DNA of 64,000 nucleotides, taken from Octopus vulgaris. Its lineage: Eukaryota. The position numbers were made by a program, and so were the translations under genes. This document shows positions 4,271 through 64,000 of the stretch, piece by piece (position 1 is the stretch's first letter; each line of letters starts with the position of its first letter). Location: NCBI GenBank assembly GCA_951406725.2, contig OX597816.1:97030001-97094000 (forward strand), read 5' to 3'. The notes beneath the pieces are model-generated. The model had not been told where the DNA came from. It did no database searches and was given only the letters and a program-made list of their open reading frames with translations.

Positions 4271-4924
4271 TATGTATGTATGTATGTATGTATGTATGTA
4301 TGTATGTATGTATGTATGTATGTATGTATGTATAAGAAATATCTGCTATGAATAACAGCACTAAAATCATATAATATAATGCATCTTGCGTATATGGAAA
4401 TAAAGTATTCAAAATCGATCGCGAAATAATTTATTCATATTGTTTGATTAGATCCACACAGATCTGGATTTGGGAAAGAGCTATTGGAATGGGAACAGTT
4501 ATAGTGAAATATGTTTGAGTAAGCTATTTCTTCGACATATTTATTACTGACAGGCGTTATTGACTTCTGAAAGTTGTTCTATGTAATAATTCAGATATAT
4601 TGTCAAGAATCCGAAAAGACGAGCGGTTGTCAGTTTCAACGAAATAGTCAATTCATAAATATTTCTTCTTTCGGAGAGCTAAACCTAAACTATTTAATAT
4701 TTTCTCTGTTCATAAAGTGTATATCCTATTATTTGCATTTTAAAGATTTTGCTATTTACTTTCTTTGGCACAGAAATGTTCCACTGGAAAGATCCCCTCC
4801 CCGCCCTTTGTGAAGTGTTAATATGCTAGAAATAGTTAAAATTTGTCTCTTACAATCTGTTTTTATCCTCTTCTGACAGGTTAAAAAGAATGTAGATTAC
4901 CAATTATTTTTATTGCATTCTATA

Positions 4925-14825: not shown

Positions 14826-15079
14826 CATTAAACTATGCAATATTCAGGCACGTAGCAATGGTGACTGTAATGTTTTACAAGTACAATTTACAACCGTATT
14901 ATATATATAAATCAGTAAAAAGCGTAAGGATGCAGAAAAGCTTCAGCCTGCTAGAAATAAGAGTTAAAGTCTTAATTAAACCACCGTAAAGCACCAAGAT
15001 AACAGAGAAATGATAGTAGGTGAAGAAACGAAAAGAATGAATACATTCAAAAGCACAACTATGAAAGATTATGCCATTT

Positions 15080-15150
15080 AGGACATCTACATACCCGAGT
15101 TTCGGCTTTTGGAAATTTAATCCCTGAGCCTCTTCAGTGCAGACCACCTA
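15080..15150 (-). ncRNA. Canonical type I hammerhead ribozyme, solo
   Basis: Minus: TAGG-tgg-TCTGCA-CTGAAGA-GGCT-cag-GGA-ttaaatt-TCC-aaa-AGCC-GAAA-C-TCGG-G-TA^TGTAGA-tgt-CCTA. All core nucleotides and three stems are present. Confidence 0.85.
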
Positions 15151-15732
15151 GTAAAAATTAAAGACCGTCACGTTATATTCCGTTAGTGTACTGGTTTTGT
15201 TTTACGCCAAAAACACAGCACATGGTGCAGTAATATTTATAAACAACAAGCTGATTTATAATCTATAGCTAAATAATGCTTTTTACCTGCGAACCACATA
15301 TCTTACTACTCTTTATGATTTATGGAGGGCAAAGATGGGAACAAACAAAGTAACAATGGAGACTTATAAGGAAACCCAGCGAAAATAAACTTGGAAGGTC
15401 GTTAGACCAGACCGAGATGAAAATAATGAACGCTGGTAGAAACGTTTTTTTGAAAAGAGGAAAGATAGAAAAGAGAGAGAGAGTGAGATAGAGAGAGAGA
15501 GAGACAAAAAAAAGAAAGAGGTGAGAGAGAGACATATAGAAAACGGTGAAGCAGGGAGGGGAGAAAAAGAGAATTAGAGAAAGATGGAGAAAGAAACCAT
15601 TATGGAGTAGAGAGTAGCATCGAAAAGGTGAAGATAAACCTACTTGGAAATGGATGTGTCGTGTTCAATTAATAATAACTGATAAATAATAATAATAATA
15701 ATAACAACAATAATAATAATAATAATAACAAC

Positions 15733-45000: not shown

Positions 45001-45453
45001 ACATATACAAGCACATACACACACACGACACACAGTATGTACGAATGTATTTCGCAAAATCACTACACGATTGCAAATCTATCCACATGCCTCCACACGT
45101 ATGTATACACAAATAAATTTAGATAACCACAAACCTCAAGAGATGTCTAGACTTAAGTAAAAACAGCTTTCTCACATTGTTTGTGCGTAACAGATTCTCT
45201 AAAGGAAAAATTAAGTTAGTAAAATCCGAAGAAATGACGTTCATGTATATATAGGCAAACACGATACACGAAAATTCTGAATGTTTACGATTTCAAAAAT
45301 AAAACACATGTGTGTGGAAGTGTGTGTATGTGTATGTGCGTGTGTATCCGTGCGTATTCATATAAGTATATCATATTTACAGATAAATTCCACTATTTAC
45401 ATAATATCGAGGTCTCTTTCATTCTTTTGTTGTCTTACCATTTCTATCAATAC

Positions 45454-45488
<35 letters not shown>

Positions 45489-45568
45489 ATAATAAATATT
45501 AGGGAATGAATCCAAAATTACAGGGAAAAATCAGATTTAGGGTTAAATCCAATTTTATAGTAAAATAT

Positions 45569-45902
45569 TATATAATATAATTCGAGACAAAACCACTATT
45601 TTAAAACCAAACAAGGAAAGACTTAATCAATACATAAAATTTTAATATAAATTAAATAAACCGCCACTACAAATGTTTCATGTCTGCTACCGACAATCTT
45701 CAGGTGGATTTTCGATCTTCTAATCAGTATCAAATTTTGAATCAAAATTTGATACTGATTAGAAGATCGAAAATCCACCTGAAGATTGTCGGTAGCAGAC
45801 ATGAAACATTTGTAGTGGCGGTTTATTTAATTTATATTAAAATTTTATGTATTGATTAAGTCTTTCCTTGTTTGGTTTTATAATAGTGGTTTTGTCTCGA
45901 AT

Positions 45903-45913
<11 letters not shown>
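45569..45913. repeat. Near-perfect 345-bp palindrome centred at 45741 within (TA)n
   Basis: ~172-bp arms, one mismatch seen, 1-nt spacer; the left arm continues unpaired to ~45488. Confidence 0.95.
45775..45818 (+). ncRNA. Type I hammerhead ribozyme (mirror copy on minus strand at 45664-45707)
   Basis: CCAC-CTGAAGA-t-TGTC-ggtagca-GACA-t-GAAA-C-ATTT-G-TA^GTGG; predicted cleavage after 45814. Confidence 0.8.
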
Positions 45914-46340: not shown

Positions 46341-46406
46341 ACGTGATACACACATGCACATACATACACACACACGTATATATATATATATATATATATA
46401 AATATA

Positions 46407-46819
46407 GGCGCAGGAGTGGCTGTGTGTGGTAAGTAGCTTGCTTACCAACCACATGGTCCCGGGTTCAGTCCCACTGCGTGGCACCTTGGGCAAGTGTCTT
46501 CTGCTATAGCCTCGGGCCGACCAAAGCCTTGTGAGTGGATTTGGTAGACGGAAACTGAAAGAAGCCCGTCGTATATATGTATATATATATGCGTGTGTGT
46601 GTTTGTGTGTCTGTGTCTGACCCCTAGCATTGCATGACAACCGATGCTGGTGTGTTTATGTCCCCGTTACCTAGCGGTTCGGCAAAAGAGACCGATAGAA
46701 TAAGTACTGGGCTTACAAAAGAATAAGTCCCGGGGTCGAGTTGCTCGATTAAAGGCGGTGCTCCAGCACGGCCGCAGTCAAATGACTGAAACAAGTAAAA
46801 GAGTAAAAGAGTAAAGAGT
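46407..46819 (+). mobile_element. Full-length tRNA-derived SINE family A
   Basis: A box TGGCTGTGTGTGG, B box GGTTCAGTCCC, CCTTGGGCAAGTGTCTT core, (AAGAGTA)n tail; at least five further copies in the window. Confidence 0.9.
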
Positions 46820-47999
46820 ATATATATATAGAAAACTGAGAATGTCTGTCTGTCTGTCTGTCTGTGTGTTTCCCTAAAACTTGAGAACTACACAACCAAT
46901 TTCACTCAAATTTTACACAGACCTTACTTAGGGTCCGGGGAGTGTCACCGGCAAAAACTTTTATAACTTTTTGCCTAGGGCGAGCCCACAACAATATCAT
47001 ATCTTCTCCAATACGATTCCCTAAAACTTGAGAACTACATAACCAATTTCATTCAAATTTTACACATGCCTTACTTAGGGTCCATGTAGTTTCATGGGCA
47101 AAAAAAATGTTCAACTTCTTGCCTAGAGCGAGCCCATAGCAATATCATATCTTTCCCACTATTTCAGTATTACGTGTTAAAAGTGAAACAAGAAAGTTTC
47201 TCTATTTTATGTCAGATACCTTCACTTTAACAATAAAAATAATAATAACAATTGAATTATATGTAGTAAGTAATAATTAAAATCAAACTAAAGTATAATA
47301 TAATCGTAACATAACAAAAGTAAAAATAGCAATTGGTATAAAATTGTATCACTGACTTGAACTTGAATAAGTGGCTTCACATGAATGGGAATAAATTAAA
47401 AATAAAATTAGCGTGCAGAAATGGAATAGTTCAGATGGATAATAAAAAATTAAATTAAAGAAAAGACTATTGTCTATAAAGTATACAATGTAGAGAAAAA
47501 AGAAGATTTGAACACCTGAAGGAAAGCACCTTCGAAAAGTGTCTTGGTGCGACTATGAAAGATATCTAACCAGAGGCGGTAAATTCGCCACATTAGAAGC
47601 AAGGTTCGAGTCAACGGAGCGTGCAAGGGAGTACTCGACTCGAAATTGCAAAGTGGAAATATTTTATTTTTACCTTTATATCTGGGACGTAGGATGTGCC
47701 GGATAAAAATTTAAAATGTCATCCCCCAGTAGTAGAGGTAGGCTGGATTGTAGCCACACTTCTATACAAGAGAGAGGGCAAGATACAATTGATCGAAATT
47801 GCAAGAGACGGGCTTACAATTCCAGTTTGTTATATATTTTGAGTTTTGTTATCACTAGCGATATCAAGATATAACTTTGTAGTTTGTATTTTATGTGTAG
47901 ATGTATATAAATAGATTTACATGTAATATATTCATAAATATAAACACATATATACATGCACTAGCACTATGACTCGGCAACGACGGGTCATAATGCTAG
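46820..47999 (+). mobile_element. Non-autonomous Helitron, second family
   Basis: 5' TATATATAGAAAACTGAGAATG(TCTG)n head; internal ~147-bp tandem duplication (46870/47017); 3' hairpin TATGACTCG-gcaacga-CGGGTCATA then ATGCTAG|T. Confidence 0.75.
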
Positions 48000-48019
48000 T
48001 AAAGATTCATATATATATA

Positions 48020-48477
48020 TTATAATAAAAGGGCTGAGTAAATATATATATTATTATATATATATACTGAACTCATTAGAAATAGTAGCTATAAAAAATA
48101 TATTTTTTAAACTATTTGCCACATTTCTTAATAGCTTAAAAAAATTCTAATACTTAAAATCTCATATAGTGTTTGCTCAATTCAACTCACGAAAGTATGG
48201 GGGTAAAGACATTAAAAAATCAAATGCAAAGGTTATTTGAGAACGTACGTTTCAAGATTAGTCAACTCGACATTTCTATCATCAGCTCAGAACTCCTTGG
48301 TTTGGATTTGAAAACACTGAAAGTGGGAGCATACCCTTTCGGCTTCTTATAGCTTCTGAAGATCTGCTCGAAACTAACAGTGCCAGCACACCCAAAATAT
48401 GCAGGCGAAGAATTTCTGCTCTCCCCTTTCCACCACCGTGGGTTAAAATCAGTAAACACTATGGTTTTTCGGTAAAA
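48020..48477 (-). repeat. Inverted partial copy of the 560-bp unit (5' inversion), with minus-strand hammerhead at ~48228-48297
   Basis: 48160-48477 is the reverse complement of the unit; 48020-48160 is a scrambled version merging into TA repeats. Confidence 0.9.
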
Positions 48478-51400
48478 AGTGTTTTCAAATCCAAACCAAG
48501 GAGTTCTGAGCTGATGATAGAAATGTCGAGTTGACTAATCTTGAAACGTACGTTCTCAAATAACCTTTGCATTTGATTTTTTAATGTCTTTACCCCCATA
48601 CTTTCGTGAGTTGAATTGAGCAAACACTATATGAGAGAGATTTTCTTTAAGTATTAGAAATAGTTTTAAAAAAGTTTTTTTAGCTACTATTTCTAATGAG
48701 TTCAGTATGTGGCAAAGTAATTTATTTTACTAAGCCCTTTTATATAATGTAATAATTTGAATTCGCCTTAAATGGTCCCTTTACATACTGAACACTTGGT
48801 GAAATTGATTAATAATTAATTAATTTTACCCTCAATTGTTGAAATTATAATTCATCTCTCTCTATTTAATGTTTCGGATTTTACCGAAAAAGCATAGTGT
48901 TTACTGATTTTAACCCACGCTGGTGGAAAGGGGAGAGCAGAAATTCTTCGCTTGCATATTTTGGGTGTGCTGGCACTGTTAGTTTCGAGCAGATCTTCAG
49001 AAGCGATAAGAAGCCGAAAGGGTATGCTCCCACTTTCAGTGTTTTCAAATCCAAACCAAGGAGTTCTGAGCTGATGATAGAAATGTCGAGTTGACTAATC
49101 TTGAAACGTACGTTCTCAAATAACCTTTGCATTTGATTTTTTAATGTCTTTACCCCCATACTTTCGTGAGTTGAATTGAGCAAACACTATATGAGAGAGA
49201 TTTTCTTTAAGTATTAGAAATAGTTTTAAAAAAGTTTTTTTTAGCTACTATTTCTAATGAGTTCAGTATGTGGCAAAGTAATTTATTTTACTAAGCCCTT
49301 TTATATAATGTAATAATTTGAATTCGCCTTAAATGGTCCCTTTACATACTGAACACTTGGTGAAATTGATTAATAATTAATTAATTTTACCCTCAATTGT
49401 TGAAATTATAATTCATCTCTCTCTATTTAATGTTTCGGATTTTACCGAAAAAGCATAGTGTTTACTGATTTTAACCCACGCTGGTGGAAAGGGGAGAGCA
49501 GAAATTCTTCGCTTGCATATTTTGGGTGTGCTGGCACTGTTAGTTTCGAGCAGATCTTCAGAAGCGATAAGAAGCCGAAAGGGTATGCTCCCACTTTCAG
49601 TGTTTTCAAATCCAAACCAAGGAGTTCTGAGCTGATGATAGAAATGTCGAGTTGACTAATCTTGAAACGTACGTTCTCAAATAACCTTTGCATTTGATTT
49701 TTTAATGTCTTTACCCCCATACTTTCGTGAGTTGAATTGAGCAAACACTATATGAGAGAGATTTTCTTTAAGTATTAGAAATAGTTTTAAAAAAGTTTTT
49801 TTAGCTACTATTTCTAATGAGTTCAGTATGTGGCAAAGTAATTTATGTTACTAAGCCCTTTTATATAATGTAATAATTTGAATTCGCCTTAAATGGTCCC
49901 TTTACATACTGAACACTTGGTGAAATTGATTAATAATTAATTAATTTTACCCTCAATTGTTGAAATTATAATTCATCTCTCTCTATTTAATGTTTCGGAT
50001 TTTACCGAAAAAGCATAGTGTTTACTGATTTTAACCCACGCTGGTGGAAAGGGGAGAGCAGAAATTCTTCGCTTGCATATTTTGGGTGTGCTGGCACTGT
50101 TAGTTTCGAGCAGATCTTCAGAAGCGATAAGAAACCGAAAGGGTATGCTCCCACTTTCAGTGTTTTCAAATCCAAACCAAGGAGTTCTGAGCTGATGATA
50201 GAAATGTCGAGTTGACTAATCTTGAAACGTACGTTCTCAAATAACCTTTGCATTTGATTTTTTAATGTCTTTACCCCCATACTTTCGTGAGTTGAATTGA
50301 GCAAACACTATATGAGAGAGATTTTCTTTAAGTATTAGAAATAGTTTTAAAAAAGTTTTTTTAGCTACTATTTCTAATGAGTTCAGTATGTGGCAAAGTA
50401 ATTTATTTTACTAAGCCCTTTTATATAATGTAATAATTTGAATTCGCCTTAAATGGTCCCTTTACATACTGAACACTTGGTGAAATTGATTAATAATTAA
50501 TTAATTTTACCCTCAATTGTTGAAATTATAATTCATCTCTCTCTATTCAATGTTTCGGATTTTACCGAAAAAGCATAGTGTTTACTGATTTTAACCCACG
50601 CTGGTGGAAAGGGGAGAGCAGAAATTCTTCGCTTGCATATTTTGGGTGTGCTGTCACTGTTAGTTTCGAGCAGATCTTCAGAAGCGATAAGAAGCCGAAA
50701 GGGTATGCTCCCACTTTCAGTGTTTTCAAATCCAAACCAAGGAGTTCTGAGCTGATGATAGAAATGTCGAGTTGACTAATCTTGAAACGTACGTTCTCAA
50801 ATAACCTTTGCATTTGATTTTTTAATGTCTTTACCCCCATACTTTCGTGAGTTGAATTGAGCAAACACTATATGAGAGAGATTTTCTTTAAGTATTAGAA
50901 ATAGTTTTAAAAAGTTTTTTTAGCTACTATTTCTAATGAGTTCAGTATGTGGCAAAGTAATTTATTTTACTAAGCCCTTTTATATAATGTAATAATTTGA
51001 ATTCGCCTTAAATGGTCCCTTTACATACTGAACACTTGGTGAAATTGATTAATAATTAATTAATTTTACCCTCAATTGTTGAAATTATAATTCATCTCTC
51101 TCTATTTAATGTTTCGGATTTTACCGAAAAAGCATAGTGTTTACTGATTTTAACCCACGCTGGTGGAAAGGGGAGAGCAGAAATTCTTCGCTTGCATATT
51201 TTGGGTGTGCTGGCACTGTTAGTTTCGAGCAGATCTTCAGAAGCGATAAGAAGCCGAAAGGGTATGCTCCCACTTTCAGTGTTTTCAAATCCAAACCAAG
51301 GAGTTCTGAGCTGATGATAGAAATGTCGAGTTGACTAATCTTGAAACGTACGTTCTCAAATAACCTTTGCATTTGATTTTTTAATGTCTTTACCCCCATA

Positions 51401-54400
51401 CTTTCGTGAGTTGAATTGAGCAAACACTATATGAGAGAGATTTTCTTTAAGTATTAGAAATAGTTTTAAAAAAGTTTTTTTAGCTACTATTTCTAATGAG
51501 TTCAGTATGTGGCAAAGTAATTTATGTTACTAAGCCCTTTTATATAATGTAATAATTTGAATTCGCCTTAAATGGTCCCTTTACATACTGAACACTTGGT
51601 GAAATTGATTAATAATTAATTAATTTTACCCTCAATTGTTGAAATTATAATTCATCTCTCTCTATTCAATGTTTCGGATTTTACCGAAAAAGCATAGTGT
51701 TTACTGATTTTAACCCACGCTGGTGGAAAGGGGAGAGCAGAAATTCTTCGCTTGCATATTTTGGGTGTGCTGGCACTGTTAGTTTCGAGCAGATCTTCAG
51801 AAGCGATAAGAAGCCGAAAGGGTATGCTCCCACTTTCAGTGTTTTCAAATCCAAACCAAGGAGTTCTGAGCTGATGATAGAAATGTCGAGTTGACTAATC
51901 TTGAAACGTACGTTCTCAAATAACCTTTGCATTTGATTTTTTAATGTCTTTACCCCCATACTTTCGTGAGTTGAATTGAGCAAACACTATATGAGAGAGA
52001 TTTTCTTTAAGTATTAGAAATAGTTTAAAAAAAGTTTTTTTAGCTACTATTTCTAATGAGTTCAGTATGTGGCAAAGTAATTTATTTTACTAAGCCCTTT
52101 TATATAATGTAATAATTTGAATTCGCCTTAAATGGTCCCTTTACATACTGAACACTTGGTGAAATTGATTAATAATTAATTAATTTTACCCTCAATTGTT
52201 GAAATTATAATTCATCTCTCTCTATTCAATGTTTCGGATTTTACCGAAAAAGCATAGTGTTTACTGATTTTAACCCACGCTGGTGGAAAGGGGAGAGCAG
52301 AAATTCTTCGCTTGCATATTTTGGGTGTGCTGGCACTGTTAGTTTCGAGCAGATCTTCAGAAGCGATAAGAAGCCGAAAGGGTATGCTCCCACTTTCAGT
52401 GTTTTCAAATCCAAACCAAGGAGTTCTGAGCTGATGATAGAAATGTCGAGTTGACTAATCTTGAAACGTACGTTCTCAAATAACCTTTGCATTTGATTTT
52501 TTAATGTCTTTACCCCCATACTTTCGTGAGTTGAATTGAGCAAACACTATATGAGAGAGATTTTCTTTAAGTATTAGAAATAGTTTTAAAAAAGTTTTTT
52601 TAGCTACTATTTCTAATGAGTTCAGTATGTGGCAAAGTAATTTATTTTACTAAGCCCTTTTATATAATGTAATAATTTGAATTCGCCTTAAATGGTCCCT
52701 TTACATACTGAACACTTGGTGAAATTGATTAATAATTAATTAATTTTACCCTCAATTGTTGAAATTATAATTCATCTCTCTCTATTTAATGTTTCGGATT
52801 TTACCGAAAAAGCATAGTGTTTACTGATTTTAACCCACGCTGGTGGAAAGGGGAGAGCAGAAATTCTTCGCTTGCATATTTTGGGTGTGCTGGCACTGTT
52901 AGTTTCGAGCAGATCTTCAGAAGCGATAAGAAGCCGAAAGGGTATGCTCCCACTTTCAGTGTTTTCAAATCCAAACCAAGGAGTTCTGAGCTGATGATAG
53001 AAATGTCGAGTTGACTAATCTTGAAACGTACGTTCTCAAATAACCTTTGCATTTGATTTTTTAATGTCTTTACCCCCATACTTTCGTGAGTTGGATTGAG
53101 CAAACACTATATGAGAGAGATTTTCTTTAAGTATTAGAAATACTTTTAAAAAAGTTTTTTTTAGCTACTATTTCTAATGAGTTCAGTATGTGGCAAAGTA
53201 ATTTATGTTACTAAGCCCTTTTATATAATGTAATAATTTGAATTCGCCTTAAATGGTCCCTTTACATACTGAACACTTGGTGAAATTGATTAATAATTAA
53301 TTAATTTTACCCTCAATTGTTGAAATTATAATTCATCTCTCTCTATTTAATGTTTCGGATTTTACCGAAAAAGCATAGTGTTTACTGATTTTAACCCACG
53401 CTGGTGGAAAGGGGAGAGCAGAAATTCTTCGCTTGCATATTTTGGGTGTGCTGGCACTGTTAGTTTCGAGCAGATCTTCAGAAGCGATAAGAAACCGAAA
53501 GGGTATGCTCCCACTTTCAGTGTTTTCAAATCCAAACCAAGGAGTTCTGAGCTGATGATAGAAATGTCGAGTTGACTAATCTTGAAACGTACGTTCTCAA
53601 ATAACCTTTGCATTTGATTTTTTAATGTCTTTACCCCCATACTTTCGTGAGTTGAATTGAGCAAACACTATATGAGAGAGATTTTCTTTAAGTATTAGAA
53701 ATAGTTTAAAAAAAGTTTTTTTAGCTACTATTTCTAATGAGTTCAGTATGTGGCAAAGTAATTTATTTTACTAAGCCCTTTTATATAATGTAATAATTTG
53801 AATTCGCCTTAAATGGTCCCTTTACATACTGAACACTTGGTGAAATTGATTAATAATTAATTAATTTTACCCTCAATTGTTGAAATTATAATTCATCTCT
53901 CTCTATTCAATGTTTCGGATTTTACCGAAAAAGCATAGTGTTTACTGATTTTAACCCACGCTGGTGGAAAGGGGAGAGCAGAAATTCTTCGCTTGCATAT
54001 TTTGGGTGTGCTGGCACTGTTAGTTTCGAGCAGATCTTCAGAAGCGATAAGAAGCCGAAAGGGTATGCTCCCACTTTCAGTGTTTTCAAATCCAAACCAA
54101 GGAGTTCTGAGCTGATGATAGAAATGTCGAGTTGACTAATCTTGAAACGTACGTTCTCAAATAACCTTTGTATTTGATTTTTTAATGTCTTTACCCCCAT
54201 ACTTTCGTGAGTTGAATTGAGCAAACACTATATGAGAGAGATTTTCTTTAAGTATTAGAAATAGTTTAAAAAAAGTTTTTTTAGCTACTATTTCTAATGA
54301 GTTCAGTATGTGGCAAAGTAATTTATTTTACTAAGCCCTTTTATATAATGTAATAATTTGAATTCGCCTTAAATGGTCCCTTTACATACTGAACACTTGG

Positions 54401-56123
54401 TGAAATTGATTAATAATTAATTAATTTTACCCTCAATTGTTGAAATTATAATTCATCTCTCTCTATTTAATGTTTCGGATTTTACCGAAAAAGCATAGTG
54501 TTTACTGATTTTAACCCACGCTGGTGGAAAGGGGAGAGCAGAAATTCTTCGCTTGCATATTTTGGGTGTGCTGGCACTGTTAGTTTCGAGCAGATCTTCA
54601 GAAGCGATAAGAAGCCGAAAGGGTATGCTCCCACTTTCAGTGTTTTCAAATCCAAACCAAGGAGTTCTGAGCTGATGATAGAAATGTCGAGTTGACTAAT
54701 CTTGAAACGTACGTTCTCAAATAACCTTTGCATTTGATTTTTTAATGTCTTTACCCCCATACTTTCGTGAGTTGAATTGAGCAAACACTATATGAGAGAG
54801 ATTTTCTTTAAGTATTAGAAATAGTTTTAAAAAGTTTTTTTAGCTACTATTTCTAATGAGTTCAGTATGTGGCAAAGTAATTTATTTTACTAAGCCCTTT
54901 TATATAATGTAATAATTTGAATTCGCCTTAAATGGTCCCTTTACATACTGAACACTTGGTGAAATTGATTAATAATTAATTAATTTTACCCTCAATTGTT
55001 GAAATTATAATTCATCTCTCTCTATTTAATGTTTCGGATTTTACCGAAAAAGCATAGTGTTTACTGATTTTAACCCACGCTGGTGGAAAGGGGAGAGCAG
55101 AAATTCTTCGCTTGCATATTTTGGGTGTGCTGGCACTGTTAGTTTCGAGCAGATCTTCAGAAGCGATAAGAAACCGAAAGGGTATGCTCCCACTTTCAGT
55201 GTTTTCAAATCCAAACCAAGGAGTTCTGAGCTGATGATAGAAATGTCGAGTTGACTAATCTTGAAACGTACGTTCTCAAATAACCTTTGCATTTGATTTT
55301 TTAATGTCTTTACCCCCATACTTTCGTGAGTTGGATTGAGCAAACACTATATGAGAGAGATTTTCTTTAAGTATTAGAAATAGTTTTAAAAAAGTTTTTT
55401 TAGCTACTATTTCTAATGAGTTCAGTATGTGGCAAAGTAATTTATTTTACTAAGCCCTTTTATATAATGTAATAATTTGAATTCGCCTTAAATGGTCCCT
55501 TTACATACTGAACACTTGGTGAAATTGATTAATAATTAATTAATTTTACCCTCAATTGTTGAAATTATAATTCATCTCTCTCTATTTAATGTTTCGGATT
55601 TTACCGAAAAAGCATAGTGTTTACTGATTTTAACCCACGCTGGTGGAAAGGGGAGAGCAGAAATTCTTCGCTTGCATATTTTGGGTGTGCTGGCACTGTT
55701 AGTTTCGAGCAGATCTTCAGAAGCGATAAGAAGCCGAAAGGGTATGCTCCCACTTTCAGTGTTTTCAAATCCAAACCAAGGAGTTCTGAGCTGATGATAG
55801 AAATGTCGAGTTGACTAATCTTGAAACGTACGTTCTCAAATAACCTTTGCATTTGATTTTTTAATGTCTTTACCCCCATACTTTCGTGAGTTGAATTGAG
55901 CAAACACTATATGAGAGAGATTTTCTTTAAGTATTAGAAATAGTTTTAAAAAAGTTTTTTTTTAGCTACTATTTCTAATGAGTTCAGTATGTGGCAAAGT
56001 AATTTATTTTACTAAGCCCTTTTATATAATGTAATAATTTGAATTCGCCTTAAATGGTCCCTTTACATACTGAACACTTGGTGAAATTGATTAATAATTA
56101 ATTAATTTTACCCTCAATTGTTG

Positions 56124-56126
<3 letters not shown>
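48478..56126 (+). repeat. Tandem array of ~13.7 x 560-bp near-identical units, each with a hammerhead (retrozyme-like)
   Basis: Period 559-561 bp (marker ORF starts at 48897, 49458 ... 55617); only a few substitutions seen between units; ends in (TA)n. Confidence 0.97.
48498..48567 (+). ncRNA. Type I hammerhead ribozyme, first of 14 plus-strand copies (next CTGATGA at 49071)
   Basis: AAGG-agttc-TGAG-CTGATGA-t-AGA-aat-GTC-gagtt-GAC-taa-TCT-t-GAAA-C-GTAC-G-TT^CTCA-aataa-CCTT; palindromic AACGTACGTT stem III; predicted GUU cleavage after 48554. Confidence 0.75.
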
Positions 56127-56181
<55 letters not shown>

Positions 56182-62616: not shown

Positions 62617-62790
<174 letters not shown>

Positions 62791-63153
62791 GCAATAATAA
62801 TTCTCTAAACGAGATATAGACAGTAACTGCTCCATAACATGCTGTCGAACAGATTTTCGAAATCAGTAAATGTATTTACGTGAAAATCTTTATATAAATA
62901 TTCTGCACAGAGAGTCGTTCGTCGAAGGGCGGTGCCTACCATACGTTGACGAGAGGCAAACACCTCGAAACCTGGGTCCGTATGTGGCTTCCGCTTCTTC
63001 GGTGGATGATCTCCCTTTGCAGGATAGAGGACGCCGTGATGGTGTCAAGCCTTTCTGGTGACGTTGATGTTCGCCTGGGGCTAAATGCAACAGTAACACC
63101 CCCACCGCCCTGCCCTGTCCCTAGCCACATTCAAATGGCTAATGTCCCTTTTG

Positions 63154-63158
<5 letters not shown>
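62791..63158 (+). mobile_element. Diverged copy of the 357-bp retrozyme-like family (50-bp inverted head plus direct body) in (TA)n
   Basis: 62791-62840 inverted; 62841-63158 aligns to the unit at 63573-63890. Confidence 0.85.
62929..62994 (+). ncRNA. Type I hammerhead ribozyme, U3.G8 variant
   Basis: GCGG-t-GCC-tac-CATACG-TTGACGA-GAGG-caaaca-CCTC-GAAA-CCTGGG-TC^CGTATG-t-GGC-tt-CCGC; predicted cleavage after 62978. Confidence 0.8.
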
Positions 63159-63190
<32 letters not shown>

Positions 63191-63191
<1 letters not shown>

Positions 63192-64000
63192 CAATAATAA
63201 ATCTCTAAACGAGATATAAACAGTAACTGCTCTATAACATAAGGGGCATCAGCCACCTGAATGTGGCTAGGGACAGGGCAGGGCGGTGGGGGTGTTACTG
63301 ATGCATTTAGCCCCAGGCGATCATCAACGTCACCAGGAGGGCTGACACCATCTCGGTGTCCTCTAGCCTGCAAAGGGAGATCATTCCCCGAAGAAGCGGA
63401 TGCTACATACGGACCAGGTTTCAAGGTATTTGCCTATTATCAACGCATGGTAAGCACCATGCATCAGTAACACCCCCACCGCCCTGCCCTGTCCCTAGCC
63501 ACATTTAGATGGCTGATGCCCCTTATGTTATAGAGCAGTTACTGTTTATATCTCGTTTAGAGATTTATTATTGCTTTCGAACGGTTTTTCTACATCAGTA
63601 AATGTGTTTACTGTGAAAATCCTTAAATATATAGCCTGTACAGAGAGTTATTCGTCGGAGAGCGGTGCTTACCATGCGTTGATAATAGGCAAATACCTTG
63701 AAACCTGGTCCGTATGTAGCATCCGCTTCTTCGGGGAATGATCTCCCGTTGCAGGCTAGAGGACACCGAGATGGTGTCAGCCCTCCTGGTGACGTTGATG
63801 ATCGCCTGGGGCTAAATGCATCAGTAACACCCCCACCGCCCTGCCCTGTCCCTAGCCACATTCAGGTGGCTGATGCCCCTTATGTTATAGAGCAGTTACC
63901 GTTTATATCTCGTTTAGAGATTTATTATTGCTTTCGAACGGTTTTTCTACATCAGTAAATGTGTTTACTGTGAAAATCCTTAAATATATAGCCTGTACAG
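63191..64000 (+). mobile_element. 357-bp retrozyme-like tandem: inverted partial copy 63191-63458, then direct units from 63459, running off the window
   Basis: GCATCAGTAACACCCCC at 63461 and 63818 (period 357); starts at (TA)n. Confidence 0.9.
63662..63726 (+). ncRNA. Type I hammerhead ribozyme, U3-A8 variant (mirror copy on minus strand ~63396-63458)
   Basis: GCGG-TGCT-tac-CATGCG-TTGATAA-t-AGG-caaata-CCT-t-GAAA-C-CTG-G-TC^CGTATG-t-AGCA-t-CCGC; predicted cleavage after 63710. Confidence 0.75.

What the first reader, a model, noticed from the sequence alone, without database searches (positions are those of the whole stretch)
62791..64000. 357-bp hammerhead repeat family with within-window covariation, including a U3-A8 core swap
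Seen: two subfamilies of one unit. One has TTGACGA (U3.G8), stem II GAGG/CCTC and distal stem I GCC/GGC. The other has TTGATAA (U3-A8), stem II tAGG/CCTt and distal GCT/AGC. Paired positions change together. Known: the 3-8 tertiary pair tolerates the C3U/G8A double change. The rest of the unit is hairpin-rich (GACACC/GGTGTC, GGGA/TCCC, AGCCAC/GTGGCT, GCATCAG/CTGATGC, CAGTAAA/TTTACTG). Inference: selection is maintaining an active non-canonical ribozyme in a structured circRNA-sized unit, which CUGAnGA motif scans would miss.
Basis: partly seen in the sequence, partly recalled or inferred. Interest (0 to 1): 0.88.

Follow-up and report, generated by a model that had tools for sequence, protein, structure and literature searches.

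The report
Hammerhead retrozyme with non-canonical core variants
A 357-base non-coding jumping repeat that carries a self-cutting hammerhead RNA motif has recently spread into TA microsatellites with the insertion marks of Penelope-like retrotransposons; it belongs to a known class (animal retrozymes), but its young copies all lack the standard core base pair, which makes it a good test of whether such elements need to cut themselves.

Summary
Real, but a known kind. The window holds two independent insertions in one (TA)n tract of a dispersed ~357-nt type I hammerhead element, an animal non-LTR retrozyme. It is not a tandem array: it stops 62 bases past the window, before a second cleavage site. 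Genome-wide, 340 exact cores split into U3·G8 (125), C3·A8 (25), mostly U3-A8 (190 by subtraction) and C3-G8 (0); an older sister family (349 cores) is canonical. Insertions carry the Penelope footprint: inverted 5'-truncated arms, TA targets and a 43-nt tail on exactly one end (55 of 57). With the sister family, compensatory changes, a core invariant at 10 of 10 positions and an always palindromic stem III support a conserved, dimer-acting ribozyme. U3-A8 and U·U are both published natural variants. Cleavage, circles and the partner enzyme are untested. Worth following: three non-canonical cores, one a mismatch, all amplified recently.

The parts
62676..62790 (.). (TA)n microsatellite, the insertion target on the left
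   Evidence: element junction at 62790
62790..62840 (-). Insertion A, inverted arm (unit positions 307-357), holding the 43-nt tail
62841..63158 (+). Insertion A, direct arm (unit ~1-314), U3·G8 / G-C subfamily; ends at the proximal end site
62931..62990 (+). Type I hammerhead, U3·G8 core (62946-62952), 4-bp stem II with hexaloop, 8-nt near-palindromic stem III, predicted cleavage after 62978
   Evidence: sequence; Rfam Hammerhead_1 26.7 bits at 62940-62984
63155..63190 (.). (TA)n tract between the two insertions
63190..63458 (-). Insertion B, inverted 5'-truncated arm (unit 89-357) with a complete U3-A8 hammerhead (U3 at 63443, C17 at 63412)
   Evidence: 99% complementary to 63664-63932
63459..63575 (+). 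Insertion B, 5'-truncated partial unit (241-357)
63576..63932 (+). Insertion B, one full 357-nt unit (reference unit, positions 1-357)
63664..63723 (+). Type I hammerhead, U3-A8 core (63679-63685), U10.1·U11.1 mismatch, 7-nt stem III strand, predicted cleavage after 63710
   Evidence: sequence
63890..63932 (+). 43-nt tail between the two preferred insertion ends (unit 314 and 357); shared with the sister family
63933..64000 (+). Start of the next unit; runs on to window-equivalent 64062 (unit 130) and stops before the cleavage site

Best explanation
A non-autonomous, non-coding ~357-nt retroelement of the animal non-LTR retrozyme kind, moved by the RT/GIY-YIG protein of an autonomous Penelope-like element (PLE). 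Shown from DNA: dispersed copies of 0.1-3.5 units per arm, circularly permuted, ending at one of two fixed internal sites 43 nt apart, mostly in (TA)n, usually with an inverted 5'-truncated second arm. Inferred: the PLE protein nicks both strands of AT-rich DNA and starts reverse transcription at the two internal sites, one per strand, which gives the two arms and the one-ended tail; the template is longer than one unit in effect (a monomer circle copied round, or an uncleaved multimer). Inferred: the minority of loci with two tandem hammerheads are transcribed, fold a double hammerhead through the palindromic stem III, release unit-length RNA and circularise, as shown for mussel and axolotl retrozymes. 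The core is still constrained at every position except 3, 7, 8 and the 10.1-11.1 pair, so the young subfamilies are probably weak, dimer-dependent (perhaps protein-assisted) ribozymes rather than dead ones. About 0.9 for the identity and the PLE-driven mobility, about 0.65 for cleavage mattering in the young clan.
For: Dispersal and youth: hits on many contigs, subfamilies 0.65-1.6% from their own majority sequence. Of 101 elements, 66 are two-armed; of the 57 with both outer ends at the two sites, 55 have one at 314 and one at 357, 2 have 357/357, none 314/314 (P about 1e-14 against 50:50); TA-rich flank at 127 of 156 such ends against 2 of 11 other ends; 7-14 bp duplications at several non-microsatellite targets. 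The sister family shows the same two ends. This matches the PLE tail and inverted arm (10.1101/2021.04.23.441226) and the two internal RT start sites of a PLE in vitro (PMC11167929). Intact young PLEs that also end in (TA)n exist in the genome. 137 of 167 arms cross the cleavage site and 5' ends do not pile up there (4 of 155, 5.2 expected). 22 of 167 arms hold two or more complete hammerheads. Hammerhead helices: 93% of cells paired, 8 of 19 pairs changed on both sides, covariation score above all 500 shuffles and all slid controls. Ten catalytic positions invariant in 12 subfamily majority sequences where 170 of 341 columns are invariant (about 0.001 if independent). Stem III strand self-complementary in 12 of 12 although 6, 7 or 8 nt long. 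Circular monomers fold at z -3.5 to -5.6 (4 of 4 tested).
Against: No cleavage, circle or partner was shown. No canonical C3-G8 core among 340, and a C3·A8 mismatch subfamily is the youngest sampled (0.65%). The 10.1-11.1 pair is unpaired in 11 of 20 rows. Most both-sided changes come from the single long branch between the young clan and the sister family, so they are few independent events; the number of pairs changed on both sides was reached by 28 of 500 shuffles and some body helices were only 69-78% paired, partly through misalignment. The hammerhead fold lies 5-10 kcal/mol above the minimum-energy fold of a monomer. In a PLE tested in vitro, hammerhead mutants inserted normally (PMC11167929). 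Circle versus linear multimer is unresolved. Neither PLE examined resembles the unit.
Confidence: 0.62

Rival explanations
1. Same element and same PLE-driven mobility, but the ribozyme has become dispensable in the young clan. Read-through multimeric transcripts are copied uncleaved; 3-8 and 10.1-11.1 variants are hitch-hiking mutations, partly CpG decay, and the remaining conservation reflects recent ancestry or a fold that the PLE protein recognises.
For: 0 of 340 canonical cores; U3·G8, U3-A8 and C3·A8 all amplified recently. G8 (after C7) and C11.1 (before G12) lie in CpG. No 5' or 3' pile-up at the cleavage site. In the window's insertion B a private base is shared by the inverted arm and the full unit but not by the upstream partial unit, as a heterogeneous linear multimer would give (gene conversion or reversion also fit). 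PLE hammerhead mutants still insert in vitro (PMC11167929).
Against: The other ten core positions never change across 12 majority sequences, and stem III stays self-complementary through three length changes inside the young clan. Only 17 of 100 variable columns are CpG-type, against 54 of 364 columns in a CpG. U3-A8 and U·U are known to be tolerated (PMC3088659; PMC7229834).
Confidence: 0.28
2. The copies are truncated terminal repeats (pLTRs) of an autonomous PLE, not an independent non-autonomous element.
For: Same insertion footprint as PLEs; U3-A8 was first seen in animals in PLE hammerheads (PMC4209133).
Against: Upstream of every truncation lies more of the same unit, up to about 3.5 copies in one arm; no PLE frame adjoins the element in 20 loci of about 10 kb (output partly cut); the hammerhead is of the canonical 6-bp/4-bp type, not the minimal PLE type; no similarity to the two coding PLEs examined; no long frame in the circle.
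Confidence: 0.06
3. A satellite that spreads at the DNA level (unequal crossing-over, segmental copying), the hammerhead being a relic.
For: Tandem units exist; the 2026 preprint discusses local tandem amplification.
Against: Arrays are at most about 3.5 units per arm, flanks differ between loci, 3' ends are fixed and 5' ends random, with inverted arms and target duplications.
Confidence: 0.04

Closest known systems
Animal non-LTR retrozymes (PMC7229834; sections on results and discussion read), esp. mussel 350-390 bp and axolotl Rtz_353 / HHR_Amex2
   Same: Unit size, tandem type I hammerheads, non-coding, self-paired predicted circle, duplications longer than 4 bp, short palindromic helix III implying dimer action; axolotl HHR_Amex2 also has a U·U mismatch at the base of helix II and cleaves better as a dimer.
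   Different: Short dispersed insertions with inverted arms, TA targeting and a 43-nt tail (word searches of that paper for 'inverted', 'microsatellite', 'covariation' gave 0); non-canonical 3-8 states throughout the young clan; expression and circles not shown here.
Penelope-like elements and their pLTR hammerheads (PMC4209133, results and discussion read; 10.1101/2021.04.23.441226, passages; PMC11167929, part 2 and passages)
   Same: Partial tandem plus inverted 5'-truncated arm, 30-40 bp tail on one end, AT-rich/(TA)n targets, palindromic helix III, U3-A8 variant (about 1,300 hits in S. mansoni).
   Different: No RT/endonuclease frame; canonical-type rather than minimal hammerhead; tail 43 nt; no detected sequence kinship to the two PLEs examined.
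Retrozymes as non-autonomous PLE derivatives (10.64898/2026.07.22.740005; abstract, introduction, part of methods, discussion read)
   Same: Proposes exactly this dependence on PLE machinery.
   Different: Its evidence is phylogenetic and in vertebrates; 'tail', 'target site', 'mollus' and 'octopus' do not occur in its main text. Here the evidence is the insertion footprint.
Natural hammerhead core variants (PMC3088659, sections 8 and 9 read)
   Same: U3-A8 covariation and U10.1·U11.1 mismatch both reported in nature and tolerated.
   Different: Here both occur together, beside amplified U3·G8 and C3·A8 states, within one mobile family.

Membership tests
Type I hammerhead ribozyme | Three helices round the core, helix I open | tested here: met
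   helix III only 2-3 bp as a monomer
Type I hammerhead ribozyme | Consensus core C3 U4 G5 A6 N7 G8 A9 / G12 A13 A14 / A15.1-U16.1 / H17 | tested here: not met
   C3-G8 absent in 340 of 340 young cores; the other ten positions met; met in 86 of the first 100 of 349 sister cores
Type I hammerhead ribozyme | Rfam Hammerhead_1 gathering score | tested here: not met
   26.7 bits against 34 for the U3·G8 copy; U3-A8 copies not listed at E<=10
Type I hammerhead ribozyme | Self-cleavage at N17 | not testable with these tools
   needs an in vitro assay
Animal non-LTR retrozyme | 150-450 bp unit with a type I hammerhead, in tandem | tested here: met
   353-361 nt in 89 monomers; 22 of 167 arms with two or more complete hammerheads; not met by the window locus itself
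Animal non-LTR retrozyme | Non-coding, no LTR | tested here: met
   no endless or long frame in 12 majority circles, longest stop-free run 118 aa; PBS and PPT not searched for
Animal non-LTR retrozyme | Target duplications longer than 4 bp where present | tested here: met
   7-14 bp at L011, L024, L092, L098, L105, L106, L117; unreadable inside (TA)n
Animal non-LTR retrozyme | Highly self-paired monomer circle (predicted) | tested here: met
   z -3.5 to -5.6, about 60% paired, 4 of 4 tested
Animal non-LTR retrozyme | Expressed as linear and circular monomer RNA | not testable with these tools
   contigs cannot show circles or ends
Autonomous Penelope-like element | RT plus GIY-YIG open reading frame | tested here: not met
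Autonomous Penelope-like element | Partial tandem, inverted 5'-truncated arm, tail on one end, AT-rich target | tested here: met
Autonomous Penelope-like element | Sequence kinship of the unit to the pLTR of a resident PLE | tested here: inconclusive
   no match to two PLE families; tail likeness to PLE1 p 0.04-0.31; other PLE families not examined

The most novel reading that the evidence does not exclude
A retrozyme lineage has left the canonical hammerhead core for good and walks among U3·G8, U3-A8 and C3·A8 while keeping everything else, because cleavage has been tuned down and made conditional: it happens only in a double hammerhead, possibly between RNAs of different subfamilies or on the PLE protein, so that a crippled core (C3·A8) is cut in trans by a competent one and the circle stays stable as the PLE template. 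The family would be a natural allelic series showing ribozyme complementation in trans and direct hijacking of PLE two-site priming by a circular RNA.
Probability: 0.15. Interest if true: 0.75.

Novelty: new variant of a known kind. Interest (0 to 1): 0.42.

Why it matters
The link between animal retrozymes and Penelope-like elements has rested on co-occurrence and phylogeny; here the insertions themselves carry the PLE priming signature (55 of 57), which names the RNA sites a PLE protein should use and makes mobilisation testable in vitro. The four natural 3-8 states, each with a known copy number and age, let one ask whether self-cleavage is needed for retrozyme spread, an open point since hammerhead mutants of a PLE still insert in vitro. 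It also shows that consensus scans undercount these elements: the whole young clan fails the canonical motif.

Tried and rejected
Expression: no RNA holder listed; contigs of three runs only guessed to be RNA and one unlabelled run were laid on the stretch and cannot show level, ends or circles; used only as the lead to the sister family. Circle versus multimer: tandem units within an arm differ by 1.6% and opposite arms by 1.4%, about twice the copy-to-majority distance, so units were near-identical at insertion; private variants: 137 in one segment, 5 shared by tandem copies, 6 by opposite arms, 4 partial; inconclusive. Direction of core change: the root moved between methods (near U3-A8/G-C, at U3·G8/U·U with support 32-37), all subfamilies are 62-65% like the sister family; unresolved. 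Some copies look mosaic (L111, L089), which weakens the tree. Partner search: two young PLE families compared, no match; tail likeness not significant after five tests. Rolling-circle translation: no endless frame. Rfam miRNA hits are the inverted repeat round (TA)n, all far below cut-off. RNAalifold preferred an alternative fold pairing G5-A6-N7 with the cleavage triplet, as did three of four single folds. R-scape was not available. Papers on single 3-8 mutants and on dimeric PLE hammerheads were not held, so the effect of U3·G8 and C3·A8 alone is recalled, not read. Searches for prior reports: 'hammerhead ribozyme'+'octopus', 'retrozyme'+'cephalopod' (103), 'retrozyme'+'inverted'+'tail'+'Penelope' (61), 'Penelope'+'non-autonomous'+'octopus' (78), 'U3-A8' (46), 'C3U'+'G8A' (42, 89) listed no description of this family; supplements of PMC4209133 and PMC7229834 were not opened and those of the bioRxiv preprint are closed, and any of them may list it.

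Full report
Setting. The window lies in a 2.8-Gb, microsatellite-rich animal genome; an octopus is my guess from size and contig number, recalled and not tested. Unit positions below count from 63576 (1) to 63932 (357); the predicted cleavage site is position 135.

What is in the window. Not one array but two insertions in one (TA)n tract. Insertion A (62790-63158) is a 51-nt inverted arm followed by positions ~1-314 of the U3·G8 subfamily. Insertion B starts at 63190 with a 269-nt inverted arm that holds a complete U3-A8 hammerhead on the minus strand, then a partial unit, one full unit and 130 nt of the next, ending 62 bases past the window, 5 nt before the second cleavage site. The locus therefore cannot yield a 357-nt monomer by two cuts. 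The window copies differ at 39 of 312 positions.

The hammerhead. Both copies fit a type I fold with a 6-bp stem I, an internal loop, a distal stem, a 4-bp stem II with a hexaloop and a very short stem III. Rfam lists nothing at gathering score and only the U3·G8 copy below it.

The family. A core pattern gave 340 exact matches and 0 for the reversed control: C3-G8 0, C3·A8 25, U3·G8 125, leaving 190, which in the 100 rows shown are U3-A8. These counts are bound to the pattern's fixed letters and are lower bounds. From 144 loci, chosen as best matches and so biased to young copies, 101 distinct elements were drawn and 89 monomers of 353-361 nt; 80 of them fell into ten subfamilies 78-99.7% alike and 0.65-1.6% from their own majority sequence, 9 being left unassigned. 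A loose end led to an older sister family, 62-65% alike, of the same length, 7-10% from its majority sequence, with 349 exact cores of which 86 of the first 100 are C3-G8, 10 C3·A8, 3 U3·G8, 1 C3·C8 and none U3-A8.

Selection on structure. On 20 picked units (14 young, 6 sister) the hammerhead helices are 93% paired, 8 of 19 pairs change on both sides and the covariation score exceeds all 500 shuffles and all slid controls, though the count of such pairs was reached by 28 shuffles. With body helices, 17 of 64 pairs change on both sides. Most of these changes map to one long branch, so this is suggestive, not an R-scape result. Stronger: ten catalytic positions are invariant in 12 majority sequences in which half the columns vary, and the stem III strand is self-complementary in all 12 at 6, 7 or 8 nt, the arrangement that lets two hammerheads form a double ribozyme (PMC4209133). 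Two young subfamilies were found by a pattern that fixed part of the core, and monomer extraction used an anchor there, which inflates the invariance somewhat. Against a simple picture: the 3-8 pair takes three non-canonical states, the 10.1-11.1 pair is unpaired in 11 of 20 rows, G8 and C11.1 lie in CpG, and the direction of change could not be rooted.

How it moves. Of 101 elements 66 have two arms. Outer ends fall at 309-317 or 350-357; in the 57 two-armed elements with both ends there, 55 have one of each, 2 have the distal site twice, none the proximal twice; 9 others have one end elsewhere. Position 357 is also my query's edge, but 65 of 76 such ends abut TA-rich DNA directly, as do 62 of 80 at 314, against 2 of 11 other ends. 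Duplications of 7-14 bp appear at several non-microsatellite targets. The sister family ends at the same two sites. This is the PLE pattern of partial tandem, inverted arm and one-ended 30-40 bp tail (10.1101/2021.04.23.441226, passages), which in vitro corresponds to two internal RT start sites with both target strands cut and extended (PMC11167929). 5' ends are spread evenly and 137 of 167 arms cross the cleavage site, so the template is a circle or an uncleaved multimer, not a cut monomer; could not tell which. Two young coding PLE families that also end in (TA)n are present (781-aa RT and GIY-YIG frame; 717-aa frame), but neither matches the unit, so the partner is unknown.

Comparison with what is known. 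Size, tandem type I hammerheads and predicted self-paired circle place it with animal non-LTR retrozymes (PMC7229834); an axolotl member has the same U·U mismatch and cleaves better as a dimer. U3-A8 and U10.1·U11.1 are natural variants (PMC3088659), and U3-A8 is abundant in Schistosoma PLEs (PMC4209133). A 2026 preprint argues from phylogeny that retrozymes are non-autonomous PLE derivatives. My searches found no account of this family, and word searches of the two retrozyme papers found no tail or inverted-arm footprint described; their supplements were not seen. Unchecked notes of this scan report similar PLE-type footprints for small non-coding units in other genomes, so that feature is probably general.

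Verdict. Observation partly confirmed; interpretation partly supported. A new variant of a known kind: interest 0.42. The part worth bench time is the natural series of four core states, including a recently amplified mismatch, in an element whose priming sites are known to the base.

Noticed in passing
window 45490-45905: A ~415-bp element between (TA)n tracts made of inverted arms, each with a canonical-core minimal-type hammerhead (45779 plus, 45703 minus, palindrome-like stem III); relatives at 76-86% in L053 and L056. Looks like a small PLE-end insertion of another family.
   Followed up: partly
window 45383-45450: Stretch resembling by eye the 3' end of the 717-aa PLE family (compare L042 6360-6430, L217).
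   Followed up: no
window 15137 (minus), about 14830-15400: A third hammerhead-like motif with canonical core, long stem II loop and near-palindromic stem III, about 300 nt upstream of a (TA)n end; probably another PLE terminus.
   Followed up: partly
L209:1626-3968 and L179-L216: Very young autonomous PLE, 4.7-kb tandem unit, 781-aa RT plus GIY-YIG frame intact in many copies, two 3' ends about 35 nt apart in (TA)n; a weak U3-A8 minimal-hammerhead-like motif lies near its 3' end (L209 about 4854-4890).
   Followed up: partly
L217:590-2740, L218:573-2723: Second young PLE family (717-aa frame) ending in (TA)n at two sites; hammerhead-like motif with a U4-to-C change and palindromic stem III near the 3' end, seen by eye.
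   Followed up: partly
L147-L178: Older sister retrozyme family with canonical core, at least 349 cores genome-wide, C·A or U-A at 10.1-11.1.
   Followed up: yes
L145:1-1350 (minus): A LINE-like first frame with a zinc-knuckle-like motif appears to interrupt a sister-family copy just before its hammerhead.
   Followed up: no
window 46406-56127: Almost 10 kb without tandem repeats in an otherwise microsatellite-dense window; no frame of 150 aa or more inside it.
   Followed up: no
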